From the human T2T-CHM13v2.0 reference genome, Homo sapiens: a stretch of 64,000 nucleotides of DNA. Of this stretch, positions 4,683 through 46,744 are shown in pieces. Location of the stretch: assembly GCF_009914755.1 (NCBI RefSeq), contig NC_060928.1; one strand, given 5' to 3'. Both the position numbers and the translations under genes were made by a program. The notes beneath the pieces were generated by a model, which did not search any database, was not told the DNA's origin, and worked only from the letters and a program-made list of their open reading frames with translations. Each line of letters begins with the position of its first letter. The stretch's first letter is position 1.

Positions 4683-6423
4683 CCCCTGGCTATACTGATT
4701 GGCATCAGTTGCAGATAATGAAAACTACTCTAGCTGATTAAAGCAATAAGTGTTTATTGTCATGTATTCTATGATTTCCAAAATTGTTGAAAATTATTTA
4801 CTAGCACGTATTCTGTGGTTTCCAAAGATGTTGGAATTGCTAAAAAAGTAAATGGAGCTTCCAGGAACCATTTCTAGCACCAGCATTTCACCGCTTCTGC
4901 CAGAATTAGAAAGCCACCAAACTAATAAGCTATTTGCTATAAAAATCATACTGCCTTAGCTAGGATCCATGTCAGCAAAACGCGTGCCTTACATCTTACC
5001 TTGCTGCCCTCTTAACTCACCCCTGAATCCAGGCATCTGAATGACAGCCATATCTGACACTGTAACTGCAGGGGCATCTGCAAATGGAGCATTTTGCATT
5101 TACAGTGCTCAAAGATACAAGCAGGAAATTAGAATTTATGCTGAGTGAGCTAATCCACAGTATCTAACACATTGCATTCAAGGGTATGAATATTTTAACG
5201 TTTCTTGGTAGACACTGCCAAACTGCTTTTCCAGAAGGCTGGAGAAATTCACAATGGCAATAGCAATGAATAACGCTCCATTTTTCCAACACTTTATAGT
5301 TTCCTAATGAGGGAAAGATAATCTCAGCAGACAAAAACAAACACTAAGTCATAAGGCACTGTGTGTGCTCACTCTTTTTCTTGCTGTTTTCTTTGAAGAA
5401 AACAGATTTGTTAAGATTGTGGTGAGGAATAATCCCTTGCTTGAAAGCTGCAACTCTAAGTCGATTTACAAATCAACTATTCTATGATGGTGACTTAAAA
5501 ACAAACAAACAAAACCAAAGCAAGGCACTCATCCGTGCAATGCTGGACTAAGCAATTTTGGTTATTGTTGAAAAGTACTGAATAAAGTATGGGGAAGGCT
5601 TATTTTACTTTTATAAGTCTCTCTAATTTATAATTTTCTGTTCCCACAGTGAAGAGAATTGTCAGGTTCCTCATCTTGGTCCTCCTCCAGGCCCTGCGTC
5701 TCTTCAATCAGTCCTACATAATTACCACTGGTTGCCTTAGAAATAGGGATTTGGGCTTGGGGTCAGCTGCTTTGATCTTTGAGGTTGAGATTTCTGCTTG
5801 AGAATTTTAGCTGTTGAAAGATGTAACATCTCATCCAGACGTGCAGGAAAATAATAACTGTGATGGAGATGTTTATATACACAAGGGATGGCATAAATGA
5901 TAATGACATAAACTTCCTAATTCCGCAAAGATACTTACAACTTTACAATTATTGGGTCATAGGACACTTCGTCAATTTGTTAAACAGAAAATGAATAGAA
6001 AATGAATACAGGGTATTTATGATACACTGTCACAATGAGATCCTATTCTAGATATTACATGTGTATGCAGAGAACATTGCAAAGGAAGCATGCTAAATGC
6101 TTATAGCAGTTATCACCAGGGGTGAGACAGTGAGTGGCTTTTACTTTATTCCTTATACATTCTGGATTGTTTGAAAATTCTAAAATGAGCATATCTTACT
6201 TTAATAAAGATTTTAAAAGGTGAGAAAAAAATAGTTAAAAAATATTTCCTAATACCTTAAAGGGTTGTAGTAGATTTAAATTACATAATTGATAAGAATG
6301 TATTTTTGTAAATTATGTAGTATTATGAAAATACAATGTAGTAAATTTTCCTAAGTCCATGATCTCCCCTCCTTACTTAGAATTAATGGGTCTGATGCCT
6401 TTAGGTATGTTTAGTTTAAGAAT

Positions 6424-6429
6424 TTTATT
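6424..6429 (-). terminator. Candidate AADAT polyadenylation signal AATAAA (distal); a second AATAAA lies at 6880-6885
   Basis: tttatt on + strand ~690 nt after the stop, in AT-rich 3'UTR; actual usage not visible from sequence. Confidence 0.6.
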
Positions 6430-6923
6430 TTAAAGGAATTTCTGTGGCATAACATAAGGTTTATGGTACTTTTACTAAAAGTCACTTATAATGACCAAAT
6501 TATAACAATTTTTGCAATAAGCTCTCATTAAATTTTCCTAAAAGTAGAAAAAGTACACATTATATACCATTTTGCACTTAATTACTTCTTTAAAATCTCA
6601 AAATAATTCAGTGTAAAATGTTAGTTTCAAAGACAATTTATGGGAAATTACAAAGCAACTACAAAGTTCTTCATAATAAATCCAAGATAAAAGTAACTTT
6701 TTACAGGTTGAAAGTTTTTCAAAATGCCTAAGTGGATTATAAATACAGTTTGGCCATCTGATGAATTTAGAGGCACTTTAAAAGGTGTCTAGTTGAACTA
6801 CTACAGATAGGACATTTTTGAGGAAATTTAATCTTTAAGTCTAATACCAGTGTTCATTTCTTCCTGCCAAAACAAGAAATTTATTGGAAAAATCCATGAG
6901 CAGCATGATTAGTTTGATTTCTT

Positions 6924-7111: not shown

Positions 7112-36560
<29,449 letters not shown>

Positions 36561-39764: not shown

Positions 39765-40077
39765 GCTATTTATTTTATTTTGAGAGGCAGAGTGTCTAGA
39801 GTCTCACTTTGTTATCCAGGCTTGAATGCAGTGGCGCCAACCATAGCTCACTGCAGCCTCGTCTTCCCGGGCTCAAGCATTTCTCTCACCTCAGCTTCCT
39901 GGGTAGCTGGGACTACAGGTGAACACCACTACACCAGGATAATTTTTTAAAATACCTTGTAGAGACAGGGTCTCCCTATGTTGCCCAGTCTAGTCTTGAA
40001 GTCCTGGCTTCAAGTAGTCCTCCCACTTTGGCCTCCGGAAGTGCTGAGATTACAGGCATGAGCCAGCGCACCTGGCC
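39765..40077 (-). mobile_element. AluJ
   Basis: Antisense dimer; TSD cacaggc. Confidence 0.88.
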
Positions 40078-42581: not shown

Positions 42582-42643
42582 AAATTGCTATTCATAAATG
42601 GCATCTACCTCAGAAATAATTCTTTGAGTTAGGTGGACAGCCT
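42582..42643 (+). repeat. Dispersed direct repeat, copy 1 (partner 46423-46484)
   Basis: aaattgctattcataaatggcatctacctcagaaataattctttgagttaggtggacagcct; ~55/63 identical to copy 2 by hand alignment. Confidence 0.85.
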
Positions 42644-45633: not shown

Positions 45634-46008
45634 AGTCCTATTCCCTTGCAGGTGTTGAAATACCAGAAGTCATCCAAAAGATTTTAAATAAAGACAAATA
45701 GTTGGGAAAAAAAAAAGAAGAAGAAGACATAGTAACAGTGCTGTGTTGAGTATGTTGGAGTTGGGGCAAAATAAAACATCCTCGTTCCCTATCTCTTTGT
45801 ATTTAAATGGTTGATATTTATTCGTCTTGGAATTGCTGCTTCAATTTTTACATTTTAAATATTCTATAGAAATTCATTCATTCTGATAACTGAGATTTTG
45901 GTGCCTTTTCTAATTTTGTGCTGGAGGCTCCTTGCCTCCCTAGTCTCATCTGGTCCAGGTTCTTCCTCCCTGTTCACAAGTGACCAATGTCTTTGTTTTC
46001 TTTTCTAG

Positions 46009-46297
46009 GCTTGGAATATTCTCAATGGCTATCAAGGCCACCATGTGGAGCAGTGCTTCCTGGACCTGGTTTCTTCTTGGCATCTGGACCTGGCCCAGTG
46101 CTACAGGATCACCTGCTTCATCTCCTGGAGCTCCTGCTTCAACTGTGCCCAGGAAATGGCTGGGTTCCTGAGGGAGAATAGACACATGAGCTTGCGCATC
46201 TTCACTGCCTGCACCTATGATTACCACCCAGGATATGAGGAGAGGCTGCACATGCTGCAGGGAACTGGGGCCCAAATTTCCATCATGACCTCTATGG
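46009..46297 (+). pseudogene. APOBEC3AP1: Orphan APOBEC3 Z1-type catalytic exon (unprocessed fragment with flanking intron, ~45920-46420)
   Basis: ttttctag|[97 protein letters not shown]|gtaaga. Contains H-x-E-x27-S-C-x2-C and aligns with A3A and the A3G C-terminal domain. The gene symbol is from memory and must be verified. Confidence 0.92.
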
Positions 46298-46422
46298 GTA
46301 AGAATGGAAACTTTGGGTGGGCTGGGGTGTGTTGGGGCAGGGAGAGGAAAGTTACTAGAAAGGCAGGGAGGGTCGGTATCCCTGTGCAAAAAGCCTTGGT
46401 TGGCTGCCTGCAGAGGCTTATG

Positions 46423-46484
46423 AAATTGCTGTTCATAAATGGAATCCATTCAGAAACAATTCTTTGAGTTAGGGTGGACAGCCT
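46423..46484 (+). repeat. Dispersed direct repeat, copy 2, directly after the APOBEC3 intron remnant
   Basis: aaattgctgttcataaatggaatccattcagaaacaattctttgagttagggtggacagcct. Confidence 0.85.
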
Positions 46485-46744
46485 ATACTGAGGCTCAGGC
46501 CCTATAGATGTGTGTTTTCATATCCCAGACACCACTATGTAGTTCCATTCTATTTCTGGTTTCATATAGATTTCTAAATTGTTTTTGAACTCACTTTTGT
46601 CTTTTTATGTTTTAAAAATATTTAATGCCCTATTGTGTTTTGTGTTTGAAGTAAAGGGAGAAAAATAGATCAGCAAGTTTCTGCATAAAATTTGTTGTGG
46701 CAAATTGTTGCTCTTGGTACCTACTTCTACATGTGCATATATAT

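What the first reader, a model, noticed from the sequence alone, without database searches (positions are those of the whole stretch)
46009..46297. The APOBEC3 exon looks like a fossil of the ancestral Z1 domain (mosaic of A3G-CTD and A3A traits)
Seen versus recalled proteins: A3G-CTD-like traits are CFLD..W.LDL.Q.YR.TCF, the short C-x2-C without the A3A/A3B 'WG' insertion, CAQEMA, SL.IFTA, and a 289-nt exon length. A3A/A3B-like traits are DLV, FISWS, FL.EN.H, loop 7 YDYHP (A3A YDYDP, TC preference; A3G YDDQ, CC preference), Y.E.L.ML and GAQ.SIMT. Inference: the copy left the cluster before A3A/A3B-CTD and A3G-CTD diverged, or came from a Z1 paralogue since lost. It could therefore polarise the evolution of target specificity.
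Basis: partly seen in the sequence, partly recalled or inferred. Interest (0 to 1): 0.7.

Follow-up and report, generated by a model that had tools for sequence, protein, structure and literature searches.

The report
Old stray APOBEC3 exon near AADAT
This is a single leftover exon of an antiviral APOBEC3 gene, copied with bits of its introns to chromosome 4 before monkeys and apes split, and it has drifted slowly enough to still look like the ancestral form of the gene.

Summary
Window 46009-46297 (+) is an open, 289-nt copy of the zinc-binding exon of an APOBEC3 Z1 domain (RefSeq APOBEC3AP1).

It is not a processed retrocopy. Homology to chr22 A3A, A3B and A3G runs into both flanking introns (about 45737-46417), the splice sites are kept, and no other A3 exon lies in the 64 kb.

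It is already catalogued. Dataset S3 of Ito et al. 2020 lists it in human and in 20 further simian species, including three New World monkeys. It therefore predates the catarrhine/platyrrhine split. Its rate and substitution pattern look neutral.

The "mosaic" is mostly retained ancestral states. New World monkey A3A lacks the WG insertion. New World monkey A3G and galago Z1 carry YDYHPG.

ML trees place the copy, with the chr12 A3I retrocopy, at the base of the simian Z1 radiation, below the A3A/A3G split. Support is weak:
- AU tests reject only placement with A3G-CTD apart from A3I, or within catarrhine A3G.
- Stem-A3G, stem-A3A and pre-primate origins are not rejected.

The object is known and interest is modest. 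One oddity remains: all 22 listed copies are free of stops and indels.

The parts
45737..46008 (+). Intron-derived upstream flank of the copied fragment, ending in the polypyrimidine tract and AG acceptor. Weak A-rich similarity may extend to about 45686.
   Evidence: blastn to chr22 A3A and A3B-CTD loci: 76.7% over 622 columns, window 45737-46347. Lenient scoring reaches 45686. Alignment. A3G matches only 45878-45929 and from 45993.
46009..46297 (+). Zinc-coordinating exon of an APOBEC3 Z1 domain (annotated APOBEC3AP1). It has 96 open codons, with HVE and SC-x2-C motifs and loop 7 YDYHP.
   Evidence: Identity of the exon: 63% aa / 80% nt to chr12 A3I-Z1, 59% aa to A3A/A3B-CTD, 57% aa to A3G-CTD.
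46298..46417 (+). Intron-derived downstream flank, beginning with the GTAAGA donor. Homology ends sharply after ...CTGCAGAGGC.
   Evidence: blastn to A3G-CTD locus 45993-46417 at 75%. The four-way alignment shows an 18-bp stretch shared with A3G and absent from A3A/A3B. No further homology on either side.
46423..46484 (+). About 62 bp that duplicate window 42582-42643 at 89% identity, starting 5 bp after the end of the A3 fragment. Possibly a second piece of the same insertion event (inference).
   Evidence: Own-genome DNA search found this as the only further match. Alignment.
42582..42643 (+). The other copy of the 62-bp local duplicate.
36312..36425 (+). Stretch matching the first 38 residues of an unnamed primate gene model (P0154) that splices into the A3 exon. 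It lies on the strand opposite to AADAT, in its promoter region.
   Evidence: tblastn of P0154 on the window: 84% over 38 aa. A second piece maps to 39852-39938 (72% over 29 aa, Alu-like) and then the A3 exon. AADAT exon positions come from the hub's gene table.
46652..46668 (+). Possible short terminal exon. After an AG at 46650-46651, and with the last G of the A3 exon, it reads V-K-G-E-K-stop, which is the C-terminus of P0154.
   Evidence: My own reading of the sequence against P0154. No tool aligned it.

Best explanation
This is a dead, non-processed fragment of an APOBEC3 Z1 gene. About 680 bp of genomic DNA were copied from the chr22 A3 cluster into unique DNA 5.5 kb upstream of AADAT. 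The copied piece holds the zinc-coordinating exon, about 270 bp of the intron before it and about 120 bp of the intron after it.

The copying probably happened as filler DNA in a break repair or a template-switch event (inferred). It happened before catarrhines and platyrrhines split.

The fragment cannot make a deaminase, because only one of the domain's exons is present. It has since drifted at about the neutral rate.

It left the rapidly evolving, gene-converting cluster early, and its own branch is short. It therefore still shows ancestral Z1 states, which is why it looks like a mosaic of A3A and A3G.

Its lineage most likely separated at or just below the A3A/A3G split on the simian stem, close to the parent of the chr12 A3I retrocopy. 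The exact branch point is not resolved.

Its splice sites survive, and gene models in other primates use it as an exon of a transcript that starts divergently at the AADAT promoter. I read that as incidental exonisation.
For: **Copy by DNA, not by spliced RNA**
- Intron homology lies on both sides of the exon, and the AG and GT splice sites are kept.
- Only this exon occurs in the 64 kb.
- There is no homology beyond 45686/45737 and 46417.
- The flanks are unique in the genome.

**Age**
- Dataset S3 of Ito et al. 2020 holds 22 rows of this exon type. They come from 18 catarrhine species (19 rows) plus Aotus, Cebus and Saimiri.
- The rows sit on chr4 in apes and chr5 in macaque, baboon and Nasalis.
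- Protein models exist from siamang (P0007, 95% identity) and an unnamed record (P0154, 91%).

**Neutral drift** (counts read by eye from the printed rows)
- Human vs macaque: 15 of 274 nt differ. Human vs Saimiri: 25 of 283.
- About 62 non-synonymous against about 30 synonymous events on the tree. The neutral expectation is a ratio of 2.5-2.7.

**Ancestral look**
- New World monkey A3A lacks WG. Aotus A3G-like and Otolemur Z1 carry YDYHPG(Y/H)EE.
- The copy keeps a 63-bp intron stretch missing in A3G and an 18-bp stretch missing in A3A/B.
- Three-lineage branch lengths over 473 shared columns are chr4 48.5, A3A 56.5 and A3G 74.5 differences.

**Placement**
- In the ML tree of 102 rows, the chr4 trio scores 100/99. 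With A3I it scores 80/88. It sits inside a simian Z1 clade (85/86) that is otherwise an open polytomy of New World monkey A3A, catarrhine A3A/B and A3G-CTD.
- In the JTT+I+G4 tree of 67 rows, chr4+A3I lies below the A3A/A3G split.
- The next best tree has chr4 alone as basal (delta lnL 3.5, p-AU 0.63).
Against: **Placement is weak**
- It rests on 96 columns. AU does not reject a clade of chr4+A3I+A3G (delta lnL 11.4, p 0.20), chr4 with all A3A/B (15.2, p 0.23), chr4 with catarrhine A3A/B (11.5, p 0.16) or chr4 outside all primate Z1 (12.0, p 0.23).
- The constrained searches were heuristic and gave different scores on repeat runs.
- Quartet sites in the human exons favour (chr4,A3A)|(A3I,A3G) 11: 6: 5, which disagrees with the chr4+A3I pairing of the protein trees.

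**Neutrality has an awkward side**
- None of the 22 listed copies has a stop or an indel.
- Under neutral mutation about 4.2% of changes make a stop, giving P about 0.02 for none in about 92 events.
- The intron flanks carry about 7 indels against A3A.

**Gaps in the orthology and distribution evidence**
- Orthology in other species rests on sequence and chromosome names. I did not see their flanking DNA.
- None of the 26 Callithrix rows is of this type.

**Mechanism**
- The repair or template-switch mechanism is inferred only from the lack of a poly-A tail, the sharp right end and a 62-bp local duplicate beside it.
Confidence: 0.6

Rival explanations
1. The fragment comes from the A3G side after the A3A/A3G split. 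Its source would be the same early A3G-like (Z2-Z1) gene that gave the chr12 A3I retrocopy. The two would then be independent fossils of one parent that no longer exists in that form.
For: - The protein trees pair the chr4 trio with A3I-Z1 (80/88; same pairing).
- A3I-Z1 is the closest human sequence (63% aa, 80% nt).
- Both carry Gln after the catalytic Glu (HVEQ / HAEQ), where every other Z1 exon segment printed or taken from the genome has a different residue there, mostly Leu.
- The downstream intron is nearer to A3G (20 differences against 21 on 96 columns) and shares the 18-bp stretch and several bases with it.
- Yang et al. 2020 (section 5 and passages read) derive A3I from an A3G-like gene in the simian ancestor and suggest its parent may be extinct.
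- A clade chr4+A3I+A3G is not rejected (p-AU 0.20-0.24).
Against: - That clade costs 11.4 lnL units.
- The copy lacks the A3G/A3I signature I-S-F-W-K-L and the GF(L/P)EG start. It has V-S-S-W-H-L and NGYQG instead, as strepsirrhine-type Z1 does.
- Quartet sites put A3I with A3G and leave chr4 on the other side (11: 6: 5).
- With branches this long, about two identical parallel changes are expected by chance (my estimate). Pseudogenes can also attract each other in trees.
- The shared intron features may be ancestral.
Confidence: 0.25
2. The fragment comes from the A3A/A3B-CTD side after the split from A3G, before the catarrhine WG insertion arose.
For: - The smallest nucleotide distance among the human cluster genes is to A3A/B. 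The p-distances in the exon are 0.215 to A3A against 0.263 to A3G. Summed over 473 shared columns, 105 sites differ from A3A and 123 from A3G.
- Quartet sites give 11 for (chr4,A3A)|(A3I,A3G).
- 272 bp of upstream intron align with A3A/B.
- New World monkey A3A scores among the best protein matches (135 bits).
- The placement is not rejected by AU (p 0.23 with all A3A/B).
Against: - It costs 15.2 lnL units, and no tree found it freely.
- The long upstream alignment is explained by an Alu-associated loss in A3G, not by a shared derived state.
- The short distance is expected if A3G simply evolved faster. Its branch is the longest, 74.5 against 56.5.
- In the downstream intron the copy agrees with A3G against A3A/B.
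Confidence: 0.15
3. The exon is not just a fossil. It has been kept open and spliceable by selection, as a coding or regulatory exon of a transcript running divergently from the AADAT promoter.
For: - All 22 rows in Dataset S3 have the full length without indel and without in-frame stop (read by eye). P is about 0.02 for no stop in about 92 neutral events.
- The flanking intron pieces collected about 7 indels against A3A.
- The acceptor and donor are still consensus-like.
- NCBI predicts a 105-aa protein with this exon in siamang.
- An unnamed model (P0154) joins it to exons at 36312-36425 and 39852-39938 and to a short last exon.
Against: - The non-synonymous to synonymous ratio is about 2.1, against a neutral 2.5-2.7. 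Overall divergence equals what I recall as the usual neutral values between these species.
- Zinc-site and neighbouring residues are lost in some species. Cebus reads S-R-S-S-S-F-S-C.
- One exon of five cannot fold as a deaminase.
- My event count is by eye, and species with broken copies may be missing from the table (none in Callithrix).
- Gene predictions are not evidence of expression.
- No human transcript is annotated here in the hub's table.
Confidence: 0.07
4. An alternative mechanism of origin: the fragment is a retrocopy of a piece of unspliced A3 pre-mRNA, truncated at both ends, rather than a DNA-level copy.
For: - The fragment is short and holds transcribed sequence only, in one orientation.
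- A3 genes gave retrocopies in the same period (A3I; Yang et al. 2020).
- An A-rich run lies at 45707-45729.
Against: - The A-rich run is at the 5' side of the sense strand, not the 3' side, and it aligns loosely with an A-rich stretch of the A3A intron.
- There is no poly-A after 46417.
- No target-site duplication is recognisable.
- The right end abuts a local 62-bp duplicate, which fits patchwork repair better.
Confidence: 0.15

Closest known systems
APOBEC3AP1 (RefSeq/HGNC pseudogene); row 'Homo_sapiens|A3Z1|5, chr4' in Dataset S3 of Ito et al. 2020 (PMC6955324)
   Same: It is the same object. The annotation spans 46009-46295 (hub table), and the dataset row has the same 283 nt.
   Different: - The name ties it to A3A, which the trees do not support specifically.
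- The dataset labels it an 'Intact' A3Z1 domain, although it is a lone exon.
- I found no text about it. 'APOBEC3AP1' gave 0 papers. The main texts of Ito 2020, Yang 2020 and Munk 2012 have no passage on chromosome 4.
- Uriu et al. 2021 is not held.
A3I, the ancient A3G-like retrocopy on chr12 (Yang et al. 2020, eLife, PMC7263822)
   Same: - Both are A3 relics outside the chr22 cluster and are shared by simians.
- Both drift neutrally and are usable as molecular fossils.
- A3I is the nearest human sequence to this exon and its partner in the protein trees.
   Different: - A3I is intronless, holds Z2 and Z1 in about 1,100 bp, and has a stop and a 3-bp deletion in the Z1 exon.
- The chr4 copy is one exon with intron flanks and an open frame.
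- A3I carries the A3G-type ISFWKL motif and the chr4 copy does not.
- Yang et al. wrote that every simian genome has exactly one such extra region, so this copy was not counted.
The zinc-coordinating exon of A3A (exon 3) and of the C-terminal domains of A3B and A3G (exon 6) on chr22. The exon numbers are recalled, not taken from a call.
   Same: Same exon limits, phase and splice sites, same H-x-E ... C-x2-C core, and alignable introns.
   Different: - Identity is 75-78% at nucleotide level and 57-59% at protein level.
- It has neither the catarrhine A3A/B WG insertion nor the catarrhine A3G YDDQ loop.
- It is not part of a gene.
New World monkey A3G-like CTD and A3A, and strepsirrhine Z1 domains
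   Same: These are the highest protein scores outside its own orthologues (Aotus A3G-like 70% identity, 137 bits; Aotus A3A 135; Propithecus 134; Otolemur 132). They share YDY(H/R)P(G/R)YEE, C-x2-C without WG, and GAQVSIMTS.
   Different: Those are parts of complete genes. The copy has its own changes, shared by its orthologues (HVEQ, RI(T/I)[10 protein letters not shown]).

Membership tests
APOBEC3 Z1 domain (sequence family) | H-x-E and PC-x2-C zinc-coordinating motifs in the exon | tested here: met
   The exon has HVE and SC-x2-C, with His, Glu and both Cys present. The Pro of PC is Ser in all orthologues seen.
APOBEC3 Z1 domain (sequence family) | Closer to Z1 than to Z2, Z3 or AID | tested here: met
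   - PDB search: Z1 domains about 1e-28, AID 2e-20, A3H 3e-19, Z2 1e-11.
- Own genome: 57-63% identity to Z1 exons, 49% to AICDA, 33-41% to Z2/Z3.
- The copy falls inside primate Z1 (90/95) in the tree.
APOBEC3 Z1 domain (sequence family) | Ile in the R-I-Y motif after the zinc site (Z1 signature, recalled from the A3 nomenclature papers, not from a call) | tested here: inconclusive
   Human reads A-C-T-Y. Siamang reads A-H-I-Y, and most monkeys C/H-I-Y. Ile is therefore ancestral at the locus, and Arg was lost by changes at a CpG codon.
Functional A3 deaminase gene | All exons of a deaminase domain present in order | tested here: not met
   tblastn of two full-length Z1-containing proteins finds only this exon in 64 kb. 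blastn of 10-kb A3A, A3B and A3G loci finds only this fragment plus Alu and simple repeats.
Processed retrocopy (as A3I and the New World monkey A3G retrocopies) | Exons joined without introns | tested here: not met
   There is a single exon, flanked by intron-homologous DNA with intact splice sites.
Processed retrocopy (as A3I and the New World monkey A3G retrocopies) | 3' poly-A tail and target-site duplication | tested here: not met
   No A-run follows 46417. The only A-rich run is 5' of the fragment. Target-site duplications would be hard to see at this age, and none is evident.
Crown A3A/A3B-CTD lineage of catarrhines | 6-nt (Trp-Gly) insertion between the two zinc Cys; PSLQLD; VRAF | tested here: not met
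   These features are absent. The copy also predates catarrhines. The AU test alone does not reject the grouping (p 0.16).
Crown A3G-CTD lineage | GF(L/P)EG start, (I/L)-x-FWKL, and in catarrhines YDDQ | tested here: not met
   The copy has NGYQG, VSSWHL and YDYHP. AU rejects chr4 with catarrhine A3G (p 0.009) and chr4 with A3G apart from A3I (p 0.012).

The most novel reading that the evidence does not exclude
The lone exon has been held open and spliceable for more than 40 million years. It carries no stop and no indel in 22 of 22 listed simian copies. On this reading it serves as an exon of a transcript that runs divergently from the AADAT promoter, either encoding a truncated APOBEC3-derived peptide or acting in regulation, rather than being a pure fossil.
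Probability: 0.07. Interest if true: 0.6.

Novelty: already known. Interest (0 to 1): 0.33.

Why it matters
A3 genes turn over and convert each other so fast that their ancestral states are hard to infer. A copy parked outside the cluster is an independent witness of an early simian Z1 sequence, alongside A3I.

Here it supports three conclusions:
- The YDYHP type loop 7 and the short C-x2-C are ancestral.
- The catarrhine WG insertion is derived.
- The catarrhine A3G YDDQ loop is derived.

There is also a practical point. The exon is counted as an 'intact A3Z1 domain' in a published census, and it was overlooked in a survey that reported one extra-cluster A3 relic per simian genome.

The gain is modest, because living New World monkeys and strepsirrhines show the same states.

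Tried and rejected
- **treekit AU test on the 102-row tree:** killed by the sandbox. Two script calls gave no answer, though the tree had finished and was read. I went on with a 67-row set and IQ-TREE directly.
- **Constrained searches:** the fast and short searches gave worse or inconsistent likelihoods (for example H1 at -4761.1 against -4755.5). I therefore entered all 14 trees into the AU test and quote the best tree per hypothesis.
- **More of the A3 gene around the exon:** none found.
- **Flanks as interspersed repeats:** the left flank and 46418-46740 are unique. A repeat family starts only near 46740.
- **Retrocopy reading:** rejected for lack of a tail and because of the intron flanks.
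- **Literature:** 'APOBEC3AP1' gave 0 papers. 'A3AP1' hits concern something else, judged from the search listing alone, as the paper was not opened. Uriu et al. 2021 is not held as a PMC article or as a preprint. The SI text of Ito 2020 has no 'chr4'.
- **Nucleotide sequences in Dataset S3:** I did not feed these into any tool. All counts on them are by eye.
- **Strepsirrhine rows of that dataset:** not examined. Tarsius has no A3Z1 row at all, so it says nothing.
Full report
**1. What is in the sequence**

Window 46009-46297 on the + strand is an open stretch of 96 codons. An in-frame TAG in ...ttttctag| precedes it, and |gtaagaatgg follows it.

The translation (P0001) matches solved structures in this order (56 distinct sequences at E<=1e-3):

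| Target | E-value | Bits |
|---|---|---|
| A3B-CTD | 3.9e-29 | 104.2 |
| A3A | 4.3e-29 | 104.1 |
| A3G-CTD | 2.5e-28 | 101.7 |
| AID | 2e-20 | |
| A3H | 3e-19 | |
| Z2 domains | about 1e-11 | |

Ten AID/APOBEC Pfam families match.

I aligned the exon with the human A3A, A3B-CTD and A3G-CTD exons taken from the same genome.

**2. Anatomy and origin**

The window's genome is held. A 701-nt query around the exon finds six places:
- itself
- three on chr22 (76, 76 and 75% identity)
- one on chr12 (80%)
- a 62-bp local match

The chr22 hits are the A3A, A3B-CTD and A3G-CTD exons. I assigned these names from their order along chr22 and from their translations.

Homology runs into the introns:
- To A3A/A3B it covers window 45737-46347, at 76.7% over 622 columns.
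- To A3G it covers 45993-46417 plus 45878-45929.
- Lenient scoring stretches the A3A match to 45686-46414.

Nothing else of an A3 gene lies within the 64 kb (tblastn with two full-length proteins; blastn with 10-kb loci). The DNA immediately outside the fragment is unique in the genome.

The fragment is therefore about 680 bp of genomic DNA: exon, about 270 bp of upstream intron and about 120 bp of downstream intron. It is not a processed retrocopy. There is no A-run after its 3' end. The only A-rich run lies 5' of it and aligns loosely with an A-rich part of the A3A intron.

Five bases after the right end begins a 62-bp stretch (46423-46484) whose only other copy in the genome search lies 3.8 kb upstream (42582-42643, 89% identity). 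I take this as a hint, no more, that the insertion was a patchwork of templated pieces made during break repair or template switching.

**3. The chr12 copy**

The chr12 match is intronless. It has a Z2-type exon match about 470 bp upstream of the Z1 match on the same strand. Its Z1 exon has an in-frame TAA and a 3-bp deletion.

This fits A3I, the A3G-like retrocopy shared by all simians that Yang et al. 2020 describe (abstract, section 5 and passages read). That paper states that each simian genome has exactly one region of A3 similarity outside the cluster, so the chr4 exon was not counted there.

**4. Phyletic distribution**

The protein databases hold two models built on this exon:
- P0007 from Symphalangus syndactylus: 105 aa, 95% identity, named 'APOBEC-3G-like'.
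- P0154, an unnamed record: 166 aa, 91% identity.

Dataset S3 of Ito et al. 2020 lists the human exon as 'Homo_sapiens|A3Z1|5, Intact, chr4'. I searched that table with motifs from the window and found 22 rows of the same type:
- 19 rows from 18 catarrhine species
- Saimiri
- Aotus and Cebus

The motif shared by all has exactly 22 occurrences. The rows sit on 'chr4' in apes and 'chr5' in macaque, baboon and Nasalis. I recall this as the syntenic chromosome, but I did not see the neighbouring genes.

None of the 26 Callithrix rows is of this type. Tarsius has seven rows and no A3Z1 at all. I did not go through the strepsirrhine rows.

The copy is thus older than the catarrhine/platyrrhine split.

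**5. Mode of evolution**

I read the printed rows by eye.
- Human and macaque differ at 15 of 274 sites. Human and Saimiri differ at 25 of 283. I recall these as about the usual neutral divergences.
- I counted about 92 substitution events on the tree of the 22 rows, about 62 non-synonymous and 30 synonymous.
- A mutation model on the human exon gives a neutral ratio of 2.5-2.7 and 4.2% stop-creating changes.

The ratio is compatible with neutrality. Zinc-site residues are lost in Cebus.

One thing sits badly with pure drift. All 22 rows have the full length and no in-frame stop. P is about 0.02 for no stop in 92 events, and the intron flanks show about seven indels against A3A. The count is rough and the table may lack broken copies. 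I keep this as an unexplained minor oddity and as the basis of the novel reading.

**6. Why it looks like a mosaic**

Named relatives from the third protein search (264 hits at E<=1e-20, 120 listed) show that the 'A3G-like' and 'A3A-like' traits are mostly ancestral Z1 states:
- A3A of Aotus, Cebus and Plecturocebus has C-x2-C without WG and ...YDY(R)P(R)YEEGLQMLQNAGAQVSIMTS.
- The Aotus A3G-like CTD and the Otolemur Z1 domains have YDYHPG(Y/H)EE.
- The WG insertion is confined to catarrhine A3A/B and YDDQ to catarrhine A3G.

Some traits are homoplasies:
- By my parsimony reading, 'LDL' arose by CCG>CTG on the ape lineage leading to humans and in some colobines. Gibbon and Colobus have CCG, and siamang has Pro.
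- The Met of CAQEMA in A3G is catarrhine-only, so it is younger than the copy.

The introns tell the same story:
- The copy keeps about 63 bp upstream that A3G lacks, where A3G has an Alu.
- It keeps 18 bp downstream that A3A/B lack.

Over 473 columns shared by the three human lineages the differences are:

| Pair | Differences |
|---|---|
| chr4 vs A3A | 105 |
| chr4 vs A3G | 123 |
| A3A vs A3G | 131 |

This gives branches of 48.5 (chr4), 56.5 (A3A) and 74.5 (A3G). On the 184 intron columns alone the branches are 19, 24 and 28. That is a near-star, with the copy on the shortest branch.

**7. Where it branches**

*Tree of 102 rows.* This used exon-equivalent segments, 96 columns, LG+C20+F+G4.
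- Primate Z1: 90/95.
- A simian clade of 46 rows: 85/86.
- Within the simian clade there is an open polytomy of four groups: chr4 trio + A3I (80/88; the trio itself 100/99), New World monkey A3A (97/89), catarrhine A3A/B (100/99) and A3G-CTD (89/93).

*Tree of 67 rows.* Under JTT+I+G4, chr4+A3I lies below the A3A/A3G split, above strepsirrhines and the unnamed Z1-Z1 protein P0005.

*AU tests.* These used 14 trees and 10,000 RELL replicates.

| Hypothesis | delta lnL | p-AU |
|---|---|---|
| Free tree | 0 | 0.75 |
| A3I forced to A3G, which leaves chr4 alone at the base of simian Z1 | 3.5 | 0.63 |
| chr4+A3I+A3G as a clade | 11.4 | 0.20 |
| chr4 with catarrhine A3A/B | 11.5 | 0.16 |
| chr4 outside all primate Z1 | 12.0 | 0.23 |
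| chr4 with all A3A/B | 15.2 | 0.23 |
| chr4 with A3G but without A3I | 20.0 | 0.012 |
| chr4 with catarrhine A3G | 22.6 | 0.009 |

The two catarrhine-only placements are also excluded by the presence of the copy in New World monkeys.

Quartet sites in the human exons give 11 for (chr4,A3A)|(A3I,A3G), 6 for (chr4,A3I)|(A3A,A3G) and 5 for the third arrangement.

The data cannot exclude an early A3G-side or A3A-side origin.

**8. What it does**

One exon of a five-exon domain cannot give a deaminase fold. This rests on established knowledge of the fold and was not tested here.

The splice sites inherited from the parent are still good. P0154 maps on the + strand to:
- 36312-36425, in the AADAT promoter region on the opposite strand (84% over 38 aa)
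- 39852-39938, Alu-like (72% over 29 aa)
- the A3 exon

Its last residues fit a short exon at 46652 (my reading).

The likeliest reading is incidental exonisation into a promoter-upstream transcript. No human transcript is annotated here in the hub's table, and I could not test expression.

**9. Known or new**

The object is named in RefSeq and listed with its orthologues in a published supplementary table, so it is already known.

I found no text that discusses it:
- 'APOBEC3AP1' gave 0 papers.
- There are no chromosome-4 passages in Yang 2020, Ito 2020 (main text and SI text) or Munk 2012.
- Uriu et al. 2021 could not be read and may bear on this.

The following may be unreported:
- It is a non-processed, intron-flanked fragment.
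- It is a second simian-wide extra-cluster A3 relic beside A3I.
- It is counted as an 'intact' Z1 domain in that census.
- It is open in all listed species.

Interest is modest.

Noticed in passing
G000 chr12:108249459-108250268 (loci L005, L008, L021, L025), outside the window: The nearest human relative of the exon is an intronless Z2-Z1 copy with a TAA and a 3-bp deletion in its Z1 part. It fits the A3I retrocopy of Yang et al. 2020. In Dataset S3 of Ito et al. 2020 this stop-bearing sequence is labelled 'Intact'.
   Followed up: partly
window 36312-36425 (+), 39852-39938 (+), 46652-46668 (+): An unnamed primate gene model (P0154) joins the A3 exon to three other pieces: a first exon on the strand opposite to AADAT in its promoter region, an Alu-derived exon, and a short last exon. 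This suggests a divergent promoter-upstream transcript that picks up the old splice sites.
   Followed up: partly
window 42582-42643 and 46423-46484: A 62-bp pair at 89% identity, the only other genomic match of that stretch. One copy begins 5 bp after the right end of the A3 fragment. It is possibly a second templated piece of the same insertion event. Its divergence would fit an age near the simian stem, but 62 bp is too little to say.
   Followed up: partly
codon 15 of the exon (window 46051-46053) and the same codon of A3I: In the rows of Dataset S3 the chr4 copy has CAG (Gln) in catarrhines and AAG (Lys) in the three New World monkeys. A3I shows CAG in human and AAG in marmoset. The same pair of states appears at two unlinked neutral loci. 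This is either a shared Gln inherited from one parent plus a parallel C>A change, or coincidence.
   Followed up: no
window 46009-46297 and its orthologues in Dataset S3 of PMC6955324: The census of 'intact A3Z1 domains' in simians includes this lone exon, and A3I as well. Human is therefore listed with five A3Z1 rows although only three belong to genes.
   Followed up: partly
window 46195-46197 and 46210-46212 (codons 63 and 68): Two Arg codons of the family (CGC) have decayed in different directions in different primates, as expected for CpG sites. The first is CGC in human, chimpanzee and gorilla, TGC in orangutan, and CAC/CAT in gibbon and Old World monkeys. The second is TGC, CAC or CGT. 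Only one CpG is left in the human exon.
   Followed up: no
L024 about 6385-6679 (A3G intron upstream of the CTD zinc exon, chr22): An Alu sits in the A3G intron where A3A/B and the chr4 copy have about 63 bp of alignable sequence. The loss in A3G therefore seems tied to that insertion.
   Followed up: no
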